From Planctomycetota bacterium (GTDB taxonomy: Bacteria > Planctomycetota > UBA11346): a stretch of 64,000 nucleotides of DNA. Location: positions 1 through 64,000 of the forward strand of contig JBBQSO010000023.1 in NCBI GenBank assembly GCA_038213805.1. Direction: 5' to 3'. The translations under genes were made by a program, and so were the position numbers. Positions 38,405 through 62,406 of this stretch are shown here, piece after piece. The first letter of the stretch is position 1; each line of letters opens with the position of its first letter. The notes under the pieces are model-generated. The model was not told where the DNA came from, did no database searches, and saw only the letters and a list, made by a program, of their open reading frames with translations.

Positions 38405-38696
38405 TGGCTGATGGCTGATGGCTGATGGCTGATGGCTGATGGCTGATGGCTGATGCCGGCGACACGCGCCGGCATTAGGATGGGGCTGGTGGCAGCGCTG
38501 ATCGCGCCAGCCAACCCAGGACCCGATCCATCAGCCTTCAATCCGGAACGGCCCGCGGTCCGCCCGTGCCCATGATGGCCCCCCATCAATCCTCAACAAG
38601 GCCAACCACCGGTCGCCTCAGGCGAGTGCCATGGGACGGCTCACCACGTCACCCCCCCCACCTCTGCCCTCGACCCAGCAGCCATCAGCCATCAGC
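38405..38696. repeat. Inverted heptamer-array element: (TGGCTGA)x7 ... (TCAGCCA)x2-3
   Basis: Seven exact copies at 38405-38453. Reverse-complement arm CAGCCATCAGCCATCAGC at 38679-38696. Confidence 0.85.
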
Positions 38697-39453: not shown

Positions 39454-39600
39454 GAGGTGCGGAGCGGGGAGCGGGGAGTGACCGGCAAATTCGGCTGACA
39501 CTCCGTTGACCGGATTCTCGCCCCTTTTCCCTCGCATCACCCCATCCTCCTTGGCACTCCGCACTCCGCACCTCGCACGCCCCACTCTGCACTCCCCGCC
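39454..39600. repeat. Inverted heptamer-array element (GGAGCGG/GGAGTGC type)
   Basis: GAGGTGCGGAGCGGGGAGCGGGGAGTG at the left and GCACTCCGCACTCCGCACCTCGCAC...GCACTCCCCGC at the right. Confidence 0.7.
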
Positions 39601-39641: not shown

Positions 39642-41444
39642 CTACGGTCTGACCGCATGCTCATCCTGCTGCTGCGCATCGGCTTCGTGACCCTGGCCAC
39701 GCTCATCGGCTTGACCAGCGGACAGCACTTCTACCACGCCACCCTGGACGGTGTCCTGCCACCGTGGTTCGGGGGAGCGATGGGCTTCGGCGTCTCGATC
39801 ACCCTGATCGCGGGCGAGCACGCATTTCGCCGGCATTTCTCGCGCGGTCTGGTTGGTTTCCTGATCGGTCTGGGTGCCGGCCTGCTGCTGGCGTACCTGC
39901 TGCTCAGCGTGCTGCATCTGGTCATCCAGGATGACACGCTCTACAACAACATCGACCTGCCGGTGGCGCTGCTCACCGTCTACCTGGTGCTGATCACGGT
40001 GCTGCGCAACATCGACCGTCTGCGCGTGGTCATCCCCTTCGTCGAACTGCGCGCGGAACGCAGCGACGAGAGCGGGCTGGTGCTCGACGCCTGGGTGCTT
40101 GCTGATGGGCGGCTGACCGCGCTGATCGCCGCGGGGCTGCTGCCGCGCCGCCTGCTCGTCCACCGCCGTGTCCTGCTCTTTCTCGAAGACCAGGCCAGCG
40201 GCCCTGATGTCGCCCTCCAGACCCGCGCCCGGCGGGCGCTCGAAGCCCTTGCCACCCTGCGCGCGATGCCGCAGGTGCGCGTGGAGATCGACGAGACCGA
40301 GATCCCCAACGCCTCGAGCCTCGCCGACGTGGTCATCCGCCTCGCCCGGCTGGAGAGCGCACGGCTGATCGCCAGCGAGCGCGACATCCTCCAGCGGGCG
40401 GCCGCCGAAGGCCTGGTCGCGATCGACCTCCAGAGCCTGGGCAGCGCGCTGTCGCCGGTGGTGCGTCCGGGCGAGGTCCTGACCGTGGCCATCGACAAGG
40501 CCGGCGAGGGCCGCAACCAGGGCGTGGGCTACCTCGACGATGGCAGCATGGTGATCGTCGCCGACGCCGCCCACCTGGTTGGGGCACGCGTGCGCTGCAC
40601 CATCCTGCGCCTGCACCAGACCGCCAACGGGCGGATGGTGTTCGCGGAGCCCATCGGCGCCGGGGACGGCGCCGGTCCGGAAGTCCGGAAGTCCGGAAGT
40701 ACGGAACAACCAGGGGGAGCACCCCGCGAAAGCCTCAGGCGTCGCCTGGGGGCATGGCGCGGGAGGAACTGGGCCGTCGACTTCCGGACTTCCGGACTTC
40801 CGGACCTCCGGACCCTGGCCGACTTGGCCGGCCAGCCCGGCCAACCCGTCCCACCCCGGCATCGCCGCCAGTTCGCGCTCCAGGACCGCGGTGAGCCGAG
40901 GATCATCGAGCACCAGCGAGGTCTCGCGGTTTGCGACCAGTGCAGAGCGCGTCCAGTTGTGGCTGCCGACCACCGCCCAGCGCGAATCGACCAGCACCAC
41001 CTTGGCGTGGCTGGTGCGCGTCAGTTCATCGAGCAGCACCGGCACCCCGTGCTCCCGCAGCCAGGCGGTGGGCGCCTCGTGCTTGTGCTCGGGCTCCTTG
41101 GTGTCGTAGGTCAGACCCCGGTCGAGGGCCACCCGCACGTCGACACCGCGACGCCGGGCGGCGGCGAGGGCCTCCATCAGGCCCATGACCGGACTGCCGG
41201 GATCGGCGCGGATGACGAACATCAGCACCCACACGCGCGCCTGCGCCCCGGCGACGAGGCGCTCGACGGCGCGCGCATACTCGGCTTCGTGCCCCGGCCC
41301 GCTCAACAGCAGGACAGGCGGGGCAGAGCGGGCGCGGCCGCACCAGCCGACCACGCCGATGGCCAGGACCAGGGCAGTGATGACCGCGGCGCTGCGCTGC
41401 CACGCGGGGCGCGGGTGCAGGTCGACCTGGAGCGGCAGCGCCAT
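39642..41444 (-). CDS. Phospholipase D/Nuc-like single-HKD protein; homologous part is about 41444-40845 and the ORF reads through to 39642
   Basis: N-terminal TM, RRGVDVRV, SHAKVVLVD, GSHNWT and NRETSL. No in-frame stop until 39642. Confidence 0.8.
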   Translation of the reverse strand: MALPLQVDLHPRPAWQRSAAVITALVLAIGVVGWCGRARSAPPVLLLSGPGHEAEYARAVERLVAGAQARVWVLMFVIRADPGSPVMGLMEALAAARRRGVDVRVALDRGLTYDTKEPEHKHEAPTAWLREHGVPVLLDELTRTSHAKVVLVDSRWAVVGSHNWTRSALVANRETSLVLDDPRLTAVLERELAAMPGWDGLAGLAGQVGQGPEVRKSGSPEVDGPVPPAPCPQATPEAFAGCSPWLFRTSGLPDFRTGAVPGADGLREHHPPVGGLVQAQDGAAHACPNQVGGVGDDHHAAIVEVAHALVAALAGLVDGHGQDLARTHHRRQRAAQALEVDRDQAFGGRPLEDVALAGDQPCALQPGEADDHVGEARGVGDLGLVDLHAHLRHRAQGGKGFERPPGAGLEGDIRAAGLVFEKEQDTAVDEQAARQQPRGDQRGQPPISKHPGVEHQPALVAAFRAQFDEGDDHAQTVDVAQHRDQHQVDGEQRHRQVDVVVERVILDDQMQHAEQQVRQQQAGTQTDQETNQTAREMPAKCVLARDQGDRDAEAHRSPEPRWQDTVQGGVVEVLSAGQADERGQGHEADAQQQDEHAVRP

Positions 41445-48387: not shown

Positions 48388-48521
48388 GGCTGACGGCTGA
48401 CGGCTGACGACGGCGCTTCGCGCCGTCTCATGAACCCGAAAGCAGGGGCCGGCCGCGATCGATTTGCAATCCCCGGACCAGTAGCTGCCAGCTGCCAGCC
48501 GTCAGCCGTCAGCCGTCAGCC
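48388..48521. repeat. Inverted heptamer-array element (GGCTGAC)x3 ... (GTCAGCC)x3
   Basis: Arms at 48388-48408 and 48501-48521, with an internal hairpin GACGGCG-CTTCG-CGCCGTC. Confidence 0.85.
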
Positions 48522-50224: not shown

Positions 50225-50244
50225 CCCGTCCTGGGACCTCCCTG

Positions 50245-50495
50245 CAGCCGGACAGCCGGACAGCCGGATAAAACAGGAGACGCGGAGGCGCGGAGAACGG
50301 AGGAGGACGACTGAGAGCTCGGACCGCCCCGCCATCCGCGTTCCTGACCGTCTGACCAGGCCGCTCCCGGAATCGCGGCGTCCACGCGCATCGCGGAAGC
50401 GCTCCAGGCAGTCCCCCCTCCCCTCCTCCGATCTCCGCGTCTCCGCGACTCCTGTTCGATCCGGCTGTCGCATCCTCGCGTTGGATCCGGCTGTC
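50245..50495. repeat. Composite inverted element with (CAGCCGGA)n outer arms and CGCGGAG-type inner arms
   Basis: Left: (CAGCCGGA)x3 + AACAGGAGACGCGGAGGCGCGGAGAACGGAGGAGG. Right: CCTCCTCCGATCTCCGCGTCTCCGCGACTCCTGTT + ATCCGGCTGTC x2. Confidence 0.85.
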
Positions 50496-50521
50496 GGACT
50501 CCCCCTCGATCGGACCACTCT

Positions 50522-51314: not shown

Positions 51315-51374
51315 TGTGCGGAATGCGGCGTGCGCAGTGCGCTGATTCACACGACGCATTCCGCACTTCGCACA
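51315..51374. repeat. Short inverted heptamer-array hairpin between convergent genes (possible terminator)
   Basis: TGTGCGGAATGCGGCGTGCGCAGTGCG ... CGCATTCCGCACTTCGCACA. Confidence 0.7.
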
Positions 51375-51380
51375 TGTGCG

Positions 51381-57191: not shown

Positions 57192-57356
57192 GTGCGGAGT
57201 GGGGAGTGGGGAGTGCGAAGTGCGAAGTGCGAAGTGCGGAGTGCGTACTGGTCCCTTGGCCTCGCTCGGAGACCGACGAGGCGCCGTTGCCCAGTTGAGA
57301 TCAATGATGACGCAGGATTCCCCGCGCACCGCACGCCGCACACCGCACCCCGCACC
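57192..57356. repeat. Inverted heptamer-array element (GTGCGRA/GTGGGGA)x7 ... (CGCACNC)n
   Basis: Left arm at 57192-57245 and a degenerate complementary arm at 57325-57356, in a divergent intergenic region. Confidence 0.8.
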
Positions 57357-60392: not shown

Positions 60393-60716
60393 GTGCCCGA
60401 TACTGTCACCATCACCGCTCCCAAAACCGTCACCCGCAGCGAGGTCGCGCCCGACCGCGGCTGGAAGGCGGTGCTGTTCAACGACGAGGTCACGCCCCTC
60501 AATGTGGTGATCTTCGGCCTGCAACGCTCCGCCGGCCTGAGCGAGGAAATCGCCGAAGCCGTCGCATTGGAGGCCCACCAGCACGAGCAGGCGGTGGTGA
60601 AGCGCGGCCTGAGCGAGGAGGACGCCAAGATCCTCTGCGGCGGTCTGCGCAAATGGACGCGTATCGATGGCATCTGTCCAGGCGTGACGTGCGAGGCGCA
60701 GCAGGATGACGAATAG
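60393..60716 (+). CDS. clpS: ATP-dependent Clp protease adaptor
   Basis: AVLFNDEVTP..VV and A.EAH...AVV. 107 aa. Confidence 0.8.
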   Translation: MPDTVTITAPKTVTRSEVAPDRGWKAVLFNDEVTPLNVVIFGLQRSAGLSEEIAEAVALEAHQHEQAVVKRGLSEEDAKILCGGLRKWTRIDGICPGVTCEAQQDDE

Positions 60717-62406
60717 GCGTCCGGAGGTCCGGAAGTCCGGAAGTCCGGAAATCGGGGACCTGTCACTGCGGCCGGTGGCGGCGGGCCGCAAGCGTCCATC
60801 CGCGCCCCAGGTCGCAGCCGAGCAGACTGCCAACCCGCCGCCCACCGGAGCCGCTGCGCGCAGCGCGCCGCCGCGGACTTCCGGACTTCCGGACTTCCGG
60901 ACCTCCGGACCCGCCCTCCGCATCCGCGCATGCAACCGCAGCCCGGTGCGCAGCGACGGCACCTTCGTGCTCTACTGGATGATCGCCAATCGGCGCACCA
61001 GCTGGAACCACAGCCTCGACCGCGCGGTCGGTTGGGCGCGCGAACTGGGCCGACCGCTGCTCATCCTCGAGGCGCTGCGCTGCGGCTACCCGTGGGCGAG
61101 CGCGCGGCTGCACCGCTTCGTGCTGCAGGGCATGGCCGACAACGCCGTGGCCTGCGCGCGCGCCGGAGTCGCCTACCATGCCTACGTCGAGGACCGGCCG
61201 GGCGCCGGCACTGGTCTGCTCGAGAGCCTGGGGCGCGAGGCCTGCGTGGTCGTCACCGATGAGTTTCCCTGCTTCTTCCTGCCGCGCATGGTCGCGGCGG
61301 CGGCCAGCCGCATGCCGGTACTGCTCGAGGCGGTCGATGGGAATGGCGTGCTGCCGCTCGCCGCGGCCGACCACGCCTTCCCGACGGCGTACGCATTCCG
61401 CCGTTTCCTGCAAAAGACCTTGCCGGCGCACCTCGGCGCCGCGCCGCGCGCCAAGCCCTTCGCTGGCGCGCCGTTGCCGCGCCTGGCCACCCCGCCCGCG
61501 GCGTTCACGCGCTGGCCCGCGGCCGCTGCGGCGTTGCTCGCCGGGGACGCGACCGCGCTCGCCGCGCTGCCCATCGACCACGGCGTGGCGCCAGTCGCGT
61601 TGACCGGCGGGGCGGTCGCGGCAGAGCGCCAGCTCGAGGGCTTCCTCGACCAGCGCCTCGCACGCTACGGCGAGGAGCGCAGCCTGGTGGCGAATGACTG
61701 TGCGAGCGGCCTGTCCCCCTGGCTGCATTTCGGCCACATCTCGGCGCACGCGGTGCTGGCACGCGTGCTGGCGCGCGAGGACTGGTCACCCGAGCGACTC
61801 GGCCAGCGCTGCGACGGCAAGAAGGAGGGCTGGTGGGGGCTGAGTGCGAGCGCGGAGTCCTTCCTCGACGAACTGGTCACGTGGCGCGAGCTCGGCTACG
61901 TGTTCTGTCAGCGCACGCCTGATCACGACTGCTACGAGTCGCTGCCGCCGTGGGCGCGCGCGACCCTCGACCAGCATACCGCCGACGCGCGCCAGCACCG
62001 CTACTCCCTGGACGACTTCTCCGCCGGACGCACCCACGATCCGCTGTGGAACGCCGCGCAGGGTCAGTTGCGCACCACCGGGCGCATGCACAACTACCTG
62101 CGCATGTTGTGGGGGAAGAAGATCCTGGAATGGACCGCGCACCCGCGCGAGGCGCTGGCGGTGATGATCGACCTCAACAACCGCTATGCCCTCGACGGGC
62201 GCGATCCCAACAGCTACAGCGGGATCTTCTGGTGCCTGGGGCGCTTCGACCGGCCGTGGGCGCCGCAGCGGCCGATCTTTGGACAGATCCGCTACATGAG
62301 CTCCGCCAATACCGCGCGCAAGATGCGCGTCACCGAGTACATCGCCACCTATGCCCCCGCTGCGCCCGGGACCCCTGATGGTCAGCAGCGCCTGTTCAAC
62401 CCATGA
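60706..62406 (+). CDS. phr: Class II CPD deoxyribodipyrimidine photolyase with an in-frame repeat insert at the N-terminus
   Basis: VLYWM, SGLSPWLHFGHIS, ELVTWREL, THDPLWNAAQ, MHNYLRMLWGKKILEW, DGRDPNSY and FGQIRYM. Confidence 0.92.
   Translation: MTNRRPEVRKSGSPEIGDLSLRPVAAGRKRPSAPQVAAEQTANPPPTGAAARSAPPRTSGLPDFRTSGPALRIRACNRSPVRSDGTFVLYWMIANRRTSWNHSLDRAVGWARELGRPLLILEALRCGYPWASARLHRFVLQGMADNAVACARAGVAYHAYVEDRPGAGTGLLESLGREACVVVTDEFPCFFLPRMVAAAASRMPVLLEAVDGNGVLPLAAADHAFPTAYAFRRFLQKTLPAHLGAAPRAKPFAGAPLPRLATPPAAFTRWPAAAAALLAGDATALAALPIDHGVAPVALTGGAVAAERQLEGFLDQRLARYGEERSLVANDCASGLSPWLHFGHISAHAVLARVLAREDWSPERLGQRCDGKKEGWWGLSASAESFLDELVTWRELGYVFCQRTPDHDCYESLPPWARATLDQHTADARQHRYSLDDFSAGRTHDPLWNAAQGQLRTTGRMHNYLRMLWGKKILEWTAHPREALAVMIDLNNRYALDGRDPNSYSGIFWCLGRFDRPWAPQRPIFGQIRYMSSANTARKMRVTEYIATYAPAAPGTPDGQQRLFNP
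60719..60910. repeat. 192 bp inverted octamer-array element (CCGGAAGT)n ... (ACTTCCGG)n
   Basis: Arms at 60719-60752 and 60877-60910 with inverted ends GTCCGGAGG / CCTCCGGAC. Confidence 0.9.

What the first reader, a model, noticed from the sequence alone, without database searches (positions are those of the whole stretch)
60706..60930. Palindromic repeat element inserted in-frame in the photolyase N-terminus
Seen: the ATG at 60706, overlapping the end of clpS, precedes a 192 bp element (64 codons, no stop) translated as ..PEVRKSGSPE...RTSGLPDFRTSG... Removing exactly 60719-60910 leaves MTNRPALRIRACNRSPVRSDGTFVLYWM, which reads as a natural class II photolyase start. Established analogy: Rickettsia palindromic elements insert in-frame into genes. 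Inference: this is a coding-compatible selfish palindrome. One-unit (8 nt) slippage would frameshift the gene, so ON/OFF variation of photorepair is possible. The hairpin could also gate translation coupled to clpS.
Basis: partly seen in the sequence, partly recalled or inferred. Interest (0 to 1): 0.78.

Follow-up and report, generated by a model that had tools for sequence, protein, structure and literature searches.

The report
Hairpin repeat inside photolyase gene start
A 192-base selfish hairpin repeat, one of over a hundred copies in this planctomycete genome, sits in frame between the first four codons and the conserved body of a light-driven DNA-repair gene; it looks like a tolerated insertion and not an on/off switch.

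Summary
Positions 60719-60910 are a perfect 32-bp inverted repeat, (GTCCGGAA)x4 / (TTCCGGAC)x4, around a unique 128-bp core. It lies 2 nt after the clpS stop, in frame and stop-free in a class II photolyase ORF. Removing it restores M-x3-PALRIR, the commonest N-terminus among the homologues.

It is not a Rickettsia palindromic element (RPE) relative. It is a gene-less member of a tandem 7-8-mer hairpin class:
- The genome has 110 octamer copies and at least 7 unit families.
- The class is almost wholly intergenic and peaks 0-10 nt after stop codons.
- Arms prefer four units.
- A copy with the same arms carries a PF05635 ("23S rRNA IVS protein") gene.

The scan has met this class before on other DNA. 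Xanthomonas heptamer pairs are its published counterpart.

Translation through the insert is likely but unproven. P69, R72 and N77 are kept. AlphaFold2 orders residues 70-75 and leaves 1-67 disordered. A sister copy has stayed in frame inside uvrA across the genus. Against it, 21% of family copies would be in frame and open by chance.

The 8-nt slippage switch has no support, because arm number is fixed at four. At the uvrA site the arm unit differs between species.

The parts
60393..60716 (+). clpS (107 aa). Its stop TAG 60714-60716 lies 2 nt before the element.
   Evidence: ORF; Pfam ClpS PF02617, 43 bits.
60706..62406 (+). Class II CPD photolyase ORF (566 aa) as assembled, reading through the element.
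   Evidence: PDB 2xry matches at E = 5.3e-73, aligned from residue 70. This exact 566-aa protein is on record from one NCBI contig.
60706..60718 (+). Original start ATG plus codons 2-4 (MTNR) and the first base of the split Pro codon. It overlaps the last codons of clpS. GAGG lies 9 nt upstream.
   Evidence: The ATG is conserved in G003, but there it lies inside the clpS codons GAT GAC.
60719..60750 (+). Left arm: four octamer units, GTCCGGAG then (GTCCGGAA)x3. Read as RPEVRKSGSPE in the photolyase frame.
60751..60878 (+). Unique 128-bp core, partly self-complementary, with no copy elsewhere in the genome.
   Evidence: only GC-rich chance matches; fold.
60879..60910 (+). Right arm: (TTCCGGAC)x3 then CTCCGGAC, the exact reverse complement of the left arm. 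Read as ..SGLPDFRTSG.
60775..60777 (+). In-frame GTG inside the element. A possible alternative start that would give a 45-aa extension before P69.
   Evidence: Sequence; frame.
60910..60936 (+). Conserved N-terminal motif PALRIRACN (residues 69-77). R72 is invariant; P69 and N77 are in >=90% of 52 homologues. AlphaFold2 models a strand at 73-75.
60946..60948 (+). In-frame GTG downstream of the conserved motif.
   Evidence: A JGI record of a 91%-identical protein is called from this codon.
40675..40813 (+). Second copy of the same octamer family in the window (139 bp) with an unrelated core.

Best explanation
The element is a gene-less copy of a hairpin repeat family. Its arms are four tandem GTCCGGAA units and their inverse, and its gene-bearing form encloses a PF05635 four-helix-bundle gene. 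Like most of its family it landed just after a stop codon, here 2 nt after that of clpS. Because the photolyase start overlapped the end of clpS, the insertion split photolyase codon 5. That separated the original ATG and first four codons from the conserved PALRIR N-terminus. It happened to be 192 bp (64 codons) long and stop-free. Ribosomes starting at ATG 60706, probably those that have just finished clpS, can therefore read through it. The result is a photolyase with a 64-residue Pro/Ala/Arg/Ser/Gly-rich disordered segment ahead of an intact fold. The insertion is tolerated, and it predates the split from the nearest relative, where most of it has since been deleted in frame. The strong hairpin probably lowers or modulates photolyase translation. 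It does not act as a slippage switch. Shown: the element's identity, family, site, age and frame, and the conservation of the downstream motif. Inferred: that the insert is translated, and any effect on expression.
For: Family: 110 paired octamer elements and 61 solo arrays in the genome, and 310 inverted array pairs in at least 7 unit families. A copy with the same arms at G000:C29:26284-26776 encloses a PF05635 ORF (83.9 bits) and also begins 2 nt after a stop, gaaTAAgc|GTCCGG compared with gaaTAGgc|GTCCGG here. 33 of 35 PF05635 genes in six genomes have a 7-8-mer array within 250 nt, against a background of 0.18 arrays per kb. Niche: of 300 elements scored, 182 have no coding flank and 99 have one. 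Of 269 sides that face a gene's 3' end, 101 lie 0-10 nt after the stop. Original start: homologues begin M-x2-4-(V)P-x-L/I-R-I-R. The motif offset is 23 in 44 of 111 and never below 20. M. mazei photolyase aligns from residue 70. Age and frame: G003 (87% identity) keeps a 24-nt in-frame arm remnant, MTIERPDFRTPGPSLRVR. Still translated upstream of residue 69: P69, R72 and N77 are kept in both G000 and G003, with R72 invariant in 52 sequences. AlphaFold2 gives pLDDT around 97 from residue 70 with a strand at 73-75, while residues 1-67 are below 50. Precedent: the same family sits in frame (126 bp, 42 aa) in the middle of uvrA, between the UvrA_inter and UvrA_DNA-bind domains. The insert is shared by the genus, while distant Planctomycetota have a 7-12 aa loop there.
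Against: By chance, 363 of 660 element-frames are stop-free, and 136 of 660 (20.6%) are both stop-free and a multiple of 3 in length. This element is open in 5 of 6 frames. The 128-bp core is not bridged by any public contig; depth is zero at 60803-60833 in all four runs. The frame therefore rests on one assembly. The predicted hairpin (-156 kcal/mol) pairs the AUG region and starts 13 nt after it, which should hinder initiation and elongation. An RNase III domain gene is present and could cut a 32-bp stem. In a roughly 5%-diverged strain (run X3), the two changes in the overlap (60713, 60716) are silent for clpS but alter photolyase codons 3 and 4. One public pipeline starts a 91%-identical relative at the downstream GTG. 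No expression data could be obtained.
Confidence: 0.6

Rival explanations
1. The element is untranslated or only partly translated. The photolyase now starts at GTG 60775 inside the element or at GTG 60946 after it, and the hairpin is simply an intercistronic or 5'-leader structure between clpS and phr.
For: In-frame and open is expected by chance in about 21% of copies. The family is otherwise intergenic. The AUG is buried in the predicted structure. The X3 substitutions show constraint on the clpS frame, not on the photolyase frame. A JGI record calls the GTG 60946 equivalent in a 91% relative.
Against: A start at 60946 would give a motif offset of 7, yet none of 111 homologues is below 20. 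It would also delete invariant R72 and the strand at 73-75, which AlphaFold2 models with pLDDT around 97. P69, R72 and N77 are retained in both G000 and G003 although 7 of 19 neighbouring residues differ. A start at GTG 60775 remains possible and would still translate the right arm.
Confidence: 0.3
2. The arms are a contingency locus. Gain or loss of one 8-nt unit shifts the frame and switches photorepair ON or OFF.
For: One unit is 8 nt, so any single-unit change would shift the frame (from the sequence). In the low-quality genome G010, the uvrA copy is out of frame with a TGA.
Against: Arm size is held at four units: 117 of 220 arms, with 52 of two, 33 of three and 14 of five. Both arms here are exactly four units and perfectly complementary. 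The uvrA copy has four-unit left arms in G000, G010, G005, G007 and L185 despite 76-91% protein identity. The G010 frame break comes from a 2-nt difference in the core, not from unit number. Photolyase is not the kind of gene usually phase-varied (my knowledge).
Confidence: 0.06
3. The hairpin acts at the RNA level as an RNase III site, like the rRNA intervening sequences that carry PF05635 genes. Cleavage separates the clpS and photolyase messages and sets their stability. This is not exclusive of the other readings.
For: A perfect 32-bp stem within a longer imperfect one. An RNase III domain gene is present (53.1 bits). The family's gene-bearing copies carry the IVS protein family.
Against: Efficient cleavage would cut off the only upstream start codon and would destroy the uvrA message, yet both ORFs are kept open. 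No RNA data are available. No Rfam family matches; the best E-value is 0.92.
Confidence: 0.25
4. The core, and hence the frame, is an assembly chimera. Reads from another of the 100+ copies were joined between the two arms.
For: Public contigs stop inside the arms (60746 and 60897). Joints across the arms come from other copies (tables 5 and 8).
Against: Both arms are joined to their own flanks in three runs from two studies. The outermost variant unit (GTCCGGAG/CTCCGGAC) is mirrored in both arms. The core is unique in the genome. G003 holds an arm remnant at the same site.
Confidence: 0.1

Closest known systems
Inverted tandem heptamer repeats of Xanthomonas (GGGAATC) and Nostoc (Rehm et al. 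2015, PMC4692102; I read the abstract and passages)
   Same: Tandem 7-8-nt units. 70-75 convergent inverted pairs per genome. [quoted passage not shown] A strong bias to non-coding DNA and to within 50 bp of stop codons. Unit numbers differ between species, while the repeat type (single or inverted pair) is usually preserved.
   Different: The unit here (GTCCGGAA) has no G-tracts, so the G-quadruplex rationale for four units cannot apply. Here the copies are linked to PF05635 genes, and two copies lie in frame inside conserved genes.
Rickettsia palindromic elements (RPE), as summarised in the MITE review PMC10969869 (passage read)
   Same: Palindromic selfish repeats of about 100-200 bp that insert in frame into unrelated housekeeping genes and are tolerated as extra peptide segments.
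   Different: RPEs are sequence families with a conserved core and encoded peptide, and nearly half of them lie in ORFs. Here only the tandem-unit arms are conserved, the cores are unique, and only 2 of about 110 copies lie within ORFs. There is no sequence relationship.
23S rRNA intervening sequences carrying a PF05635 (S23p/IVS protein, Avd-like) ORF. The link between PF05635 and Avd is from PMC10053308 (passage read); the IVS biology is from my own knowledge.
   Same: A stem formed by inverted ends around a variable interior. The full-length family member with identical arms carries a PF05635 gene (G000:C29).
   Different: This copy has no gene and lies in a protein-coding message, not in 23S rRNA. 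RNase III excision is not shown.
REP/REPIN and classical MITEs
   Same: Small, abundant, hairpin-forming, mostly intergenic repeats that are patchy among close relatives.
   Different: The arms are tandem arrays, not a single conserved palindrome. No target-site duplication was seen at the junctions I examined. The cores are not conserved. No RAYT or transposase link was examined.
Drosophila foldback (FB) elements (recalled, no call)
   Same: Inverted ends built from short tandem subrepeats of variable number, around heterogeneous central loops.
   Different: FB elements are eukaryotic, much larger, and use transposase-linked mobilisation. The likeness is architectural only.

Membership tests
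Tandem 7-8-mer inverted-array repeats (Xanthomonas type, Rehm 2015) | Arms are head-to-tail runs of a 7-8-nt unit, paired in convergent inverted orientation | tested here: met
   4 + 4 octamer units, 32/32 complementary.
Tandem 7-8-mer inverted-array repeats (Xanthomonas type, Rehm 2015) | Preference for four units per array | tested here: met
   117 of 220 arms have four units.
Tandem 7-8-mer inverted-array repeats (Xanthomonas type, Rehm 2015) | Non-coding bias, close to stop codons | tested here: met
   281 of 300 elements have at most one coding flank; 101 of 269 3'-end sides lie 0-10 nt after the stop.
Tandem 7-8-mer inverted-array repeats (Xanthomonas type, Rehm 2015) | G-rich unit able to form a G-quadruplex | tested here: not met
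   The unit GTCCGGAA has no run of three G (sequence).
PF05635 (IVS-protein) hairpin cassettes and their gene-less copies | A copy with the same arms encloses a PF05635 gene in the same genome | tested here: met
   G000:C29:26284-26776. Also G010:C632.
PF05635 (IVS-protein) hairpin cassettes and their gene-less copies | This copy itself carries the gene | tested here: not met
   The 128-bp core has no such ORF. It is a gene-less member.
Rickettsia palindromic elements | Conserved element sequence and encoded peptide shared among copies | tested here: not met
   Only 12 of 110 cores have any BLAST partner. Only the arm peptides recur.
Rickettsia palindromic elements | In-frame insertion into conserved ORFs | tested here: met
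   phr and uvrA: 2 of about 110 copies.
MITE | Target-site duplication and a conserved internal sequence derived from an autonomous transposon | tested here: not met
   No duplication at the phr, C29, 40675 or 50245 junctions. Cores are unrelated.
Phase-variable simple-sequence contingency locus | Unit number varies within and between close strains | tested here: inconclusive
   Comparative data argue against it (four units conserved). The reads could not show unit counts.
Class II CPD photolyase (the host gene) | Full-length similarity to solved class II enzymes | tested here: met
   2xry at E = 5.3e-73 over residues 70-550; mean pLDDT 88, pTM 0.84.
REP/REPIN | Association with a RAYT (IS200/IS605-like) transposase | not tested
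   No search for RAYT genes was made.

The most novel reading that the evidence does not exclude
The arms of these PF05635-linked hairpins are actively rewritten from a template held elsewhere in the genome. The copy fixed in frame in uvrA since the origin of the genus carries (GTCCGGAA)x4 in three species, (GTCCGGG)x4 in another and (GTCCGAT)x4 in a fifth. In the genomes where this was checked, the unit at uvrA is one amplified genome-wide: G000 and G010 have hundreds of octamer hits and no GTCCGGG hits, while G007 has 152 GTCCGGG hits. In the two cases checked it also flanks that genome's own PF05635 gene. Meanwhile the core drifts freely, and the arms decay where the family is rare (G003, G002). 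That would imply a conversion or templated-repair mechanism, possibly involving the Avd-like PF05635 protein. Such a mechanism would maintain four-unit arms, favour the position just after stop codons, and occasionally build new disordered segments into proteins such as this photolyase.
Probability: 0.25. Interest if true: 0.8.

Novelty: new variant of a known kind. Interest (0 to 1): 0.5.

Why it matters
It documents that the poorly understood class of tandem 7-8-mer hairpin repeats can become part of conserved proteins. The same class includes the Xanthomonas "quadruplex" heptamers. Here one copy lies at the N-terminus of a photolyase and another in an interdomain loop of UvrA, much as Rickettsia palindromic elements do. 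It also undercuts the G-quadruplex explanation for the four-unit preference, since the same preference holds for a unit that cannot form quadruplexes. The uvrA and phr copies are dated, orthologous markers. They show the arms being kept perfect or switched to a new unit while the core drifts. That makes the question of how these repeats spread and are maintained, and what PF05635 proteins do, directly testable. For annotation, it warns that start-codon calls at such junctions differ between pipelines (566 aa against 486 aa).

Tried and rejected
- Reads: only assembled contigs were available. They break inside the arms, so neither unit-number variation nor the core could be checked.
- Metagenome scan with the 91% relative P0122: only relatives at <=66% identity came back, so no third close copy of the junction was obtained.
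- Rfam: nothing; the best hit was a chance miRNA match at E = 0.92.
- BLAST of the 128-bp core against the whole genome and of cores against each other: no source for the core was found.
- Target-site duplications: none seen at the four junctions inspected.
- Literature: I found no description of PF05635-linked tandem-array hairpins, or of such arrays in frame in genes. Hits were Rehm 2015 (read in part) and MacGregor 2015, PMC4679880 (listing and abstract start only). The report that REP hairpins within about 15 nt of a stop codon stall ribosomes is recalled (Liang, Rudd and Deutscher 2015) and was not found by one search.
- A misassembled contig join was considered and largely rejected (see rivals).
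- A terminator role was rejected because no T-run follows the right arm.
- My coding-context calls use a home-made codon log-odds score, not a gene finder. Of the 7 'in-frame open' cases it gave, 6 were chance GC-rich arrays inside genes and were set aside.
Full report
**1. The observation**

The window is contig C23 of a 5.5-Mb, 69.2% GC draft genome of 180 contigs. Record titles of its nearest uvrA relatives read "MAG: Planctomycetota bacterium".

clpS is at 60393-60716 (ClpS Pfam, 43 bits). A 566-aa ORF at 60706-62406 starts at an ATG 11 nt inside clpS. This ORF is a class II CPD photolyase. M. mazei 2xry matches at E = 5.3e-73 and aligns from query residue 70, ALRIRA against PKRIRAL.

Between codon 4 and residue 69 lies the 192-bp element 60719-60910. 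Its left arm is GTCCGGAG(GTCCGGAA)x3, its core is 128 bp, and its right arm is the exact reverse complement of the left.

The arm pattern occurs 10 times in the window against 0 in 100 shuffles. The region folds at -156 kcal/mol against -116 for shuffles, z = -7.9. Deleting exactly 60719-60910 gives MTNRPALRIRACN....

**2. What the element is**

It is one of 110 paired elements, plus 61 solo arrays, with these octamer arms in the genome.
- Total lengths are 74-492 bp, and length mod 3 is 40/40/30.
- The cores are not a family. Only 12 of 110 have any BLAST partner, and this core is unique.
- A Tandem Repeats Finder survey finds 310 inverted array pairs. The main unit families are AAGTCCGG (94), AGCCATC (63), ACCCTAG (27), ACGCGGAG (26), ACTCCGC (20), ACGGCTG (10) and AGGCGCGG (8). 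The window alone holds six.
- Arms prefer four units: 117 of 220.

I trained a codon log-odds score on 1,464 long ORFs. With it, 182 of 300 elements have no coding flank, 99 have one, and 16 have two on the same strand. Of 269 element sides that face a gene's 3' end, 101 lie 0-10 nt after the stop. In the octamer family, 62 of 220 sides have a stop 1-12 nt before the first unit.

The photolyase copy fits this pattern, since it begins 2 nt after the clpS stop.

**3. Link to PF05635**

Earlier notes of this scan (e1-1376192, e1-2106571, e1-1153229) claim that such arrays bracket "23S rRNA IVS protein" genes. I tested this.
- G000 has five PF05635 genes.
- One, at C29:26284-26776, is enclosed by (GTCCGGAA)x4.4 and (TTCCGGAC)x4.5. 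It also begins 2 nt after a stop, that of guaB.
- Another, at C19:5907-6407, sits between TGATGGC arrays.
- Across G000 and five relatives, 33 of 35 PF05635 genes have a 7-8-mer array within 250 nt. 21 have arrays on both sides, and 9 have the same unit inverted on both sides. The background is 0.18 arrays per kb.

The photolyase element is therefore a gene-less member of a family whose full-length form carries this Avd-like gene. The link between PF05635 and Avd comes from a passage in PMC10053308.

**4. Distribution and turnover**

The octamer pattern is patchy. Hit counts are 249 in G000, 328 in G010, 191 in G005, 91 in G006, 87 in G020 (another genus), 47 in G007, 13 in G003 and 4 in G002. 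The other 33 genomes searched have none, and the reversed control gives 0.

Orthologous intergenic sites differ between G000 and its close relative G003.
- The 297-nt nested element at window 50225-50521 corresponds to a 6-nt spacer in G003.
- The octamer copy at 40675-40813 corresponds to a 320-nt stretch with different arrays.
- A site that is empty in G000 holds ACCCTAG/GGTCCAG arrays in G003.

**5. History at the photolyase site**

- Only G003 shares the clpS-phr adjacency, 1 of 19 relatives' loci.
- At the same point G003 has 24 nt of arm-like sequence, in frame: MTIERPDFRTPGPSLRVR. TCCGGA is its own reverse complement, so both arms share it as a direct repeat. Deletion between two such cores would leave this kind of remnant (inference).
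- All other orthologues start M-x(2-14)-P-x-[LI]-R with no element.
- Among the 120 best homologues in the large protein collection, the VLYWM motif was found in 111. Its offset from the start is 23 in 44 of them and never below 20. Deleting the element gives offset 23.

The insertion is therefore real and predates the G000/G003 split.

**6. Is the insert translated?**

For:
- R72 is invariant, and P69 and N77 are at least 90% conserved in 52 sequences.
- All three are retained in G000 and G003, although 7 of the 19 residues from position 69 differ between them.
- AlphaFold2 (mean pLDDT 88.1, pTM 0.84) gives pLDDT around 97 from residue 70, with a strand at 73-75. Residues 1-67 are below 50. 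A start at GTG 60946 would remove an ordered, conserved piece.
- The only in-frame canonical starts upstream are ATG 60706 and GTG 60775.
- The G003 remnant is also in frame.
- The family has a clear precedent in uvrA (section 7).

Against:
- 20.6% of element-frames would be open and a multiple of three by chance, and this element is open in 5 of 6 frames.
- The core is not independently covered by public contigs.
- The hairpin buries the AUG region.
- RNase III is encoded.
- The two differences in the overlap in run X3 are silent for clpS but not for phr.
- A JGI record of a 91% relative is called from the downstream GTG.

I put read-through from ATG 60706 at about 0.55-0.6.

**7. The uvrA copy**

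G000:C5:13069-13194 is a 126-bp octamer element, in frame in a 1,164-aa UvrA. It lies between the UvrA_inter and UvrA_DNA-bind domains. Distant Planctomycetota (60-68% identity) have a 7-12 aa loop there. The clade at 76% identity or more has 45-55 aa. Within that clade the arms are:
- (GTCCGGAA)x4 in G000, G010 and G005;
- (GTCCGGG)x4 in G007;
- (GTCCGAT)x4 with (CATCGGA)x5 in L185;
- degenerate in G002;
- unrecognisable in G003.

The heptamer GTCCGGG has 152 hits in G007 but none in G000 or G010, and it flanks a PF05635 gene in G007. The cores are barely alignable between species while the arms stay perfect. An in-frame copy can thus persist for the life of a genus, and its arms evolve in concert with the genome's own family. 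The mechanism is unknown; see the novel case.

The G010 copy is out of frame, through a 2-nt core difference and a TGA, but that genome is a 68%-complete draft.

**8. The switch hypothesis**

Nothing supports it. Unit number is held at four across the genome and across species at an orthologous site, and the one broken copy is not broken by a change in unit number. The reads available could not address it directly.

**9. Comparison with known elements**

The published counterpart is the Xanthomonas/Nostoc heptamer repeat class (Rehm 2015). It shares the convergent inverted pairs, four-unit preference, non-coding bias and proximity to stop codons. Its G-quadruplex rationale cannot apply to GTCCGGAA.

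RPEs are the functional analogue for in-frame insertion, but the defining conserved core is absent here. The element also fails MITE criteria: no target duplication and no conserved interior. My literature searches found no description of the PF05635 link or of in-frame copies of this class. The scan's own earlier notes had already made the PF05635 link on other genomes.

**10. Verdict**

This is a real, old, in-frame insertion of a known but unexplained repeat class into the start of a photolyase. It is probably read through as a disordered N-terminal segment, and it is not a phase switch. Interest is moderate for the locus itself. It is higher for what the phr and uvrA copies reveal about how the class behaves.

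Noticed in passing
G000:C5:13069-13194 (L026 2570-2695, minus strand); relatives L028, L029, L030, L031, L032+L184, L185: The same octamer element lies in frame (42 aa) in the middle of uvrA. The insert is shared by the genus, but its arms are GTCCGGAA, GTCCGGG or GTCCGAT units (four units in the left arm in each case) depending on the species. Distant Planctomycetota have a 7-12 aa loop at this point.
   Followed up: yes
G010:C11 (L031 about 1990-2250): The uvrA copy in G010 has a core 2 nt shorter and an in-frame TGA, so uvrA reads in two frames there. This is either a real pseudogene or an error of a 68%-complete draft.
   Followed up: partly
G000:C29:26284-26776 (L027 485-977): A full-length family member. 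(GTCCGGAA)x4.4, a 146-aa PF05635 ORF whose C-terminus runs into the right arm, and (TTCCGGAC)x4.5. It is inserted 2 nt after the guaB stop and just before guaA.
   Followed up: yes
window 50225-50521: A nested hairpin: CAGCCGGA arrays outside GGAGACGC arrays. It directly follows a TAG stop. G003 has only a 6-nt spacer at this site, a clean empty site.
   Followed up: partly
window 38405-38696, 39461-39595, 48388-48521, 51316-51378, 57192-57355: Further inverted tandem-heptamer elements of other unit families (TGGCTGA, GGAGCGG/GCACTCC, GGCTGAC, GTGCGGA). The orthologous sites in G003 hold different or no arrays.
   Followed up: partly
genome-wide: Four-unit arms dominate (117 of 220) although the unit has no G-tract. 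The four-unit preference reported for Xanthomonas repeats therefore cannot be explained here by G-quadruplex formation.
   Followed up: partly
genome-wide, octamer family: About 18 genes read 39-62 nt into an element before reaching a stop, so their C-terminal tails are encoded by an arm. Many elements have a stop codon plus a purine-rich spacer (gagg, ggggaag) mirrored on both sides.
   Followed up: no
P0122 compared with window 60946: A 91%-identical photolyase in a JGI record is annotated from the downstream GTG (486 aa). The NCBI record of this window's gene is annotated from ATG 60706 (566 aa).
   Followed up: partly
G003:C71 (L030): uvrA of G003 matches in two pieces that meet at query residue 336-337, in different open frames. 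This may be a frameshift, or an assembly error unrelated to the element.
   Followed up: no
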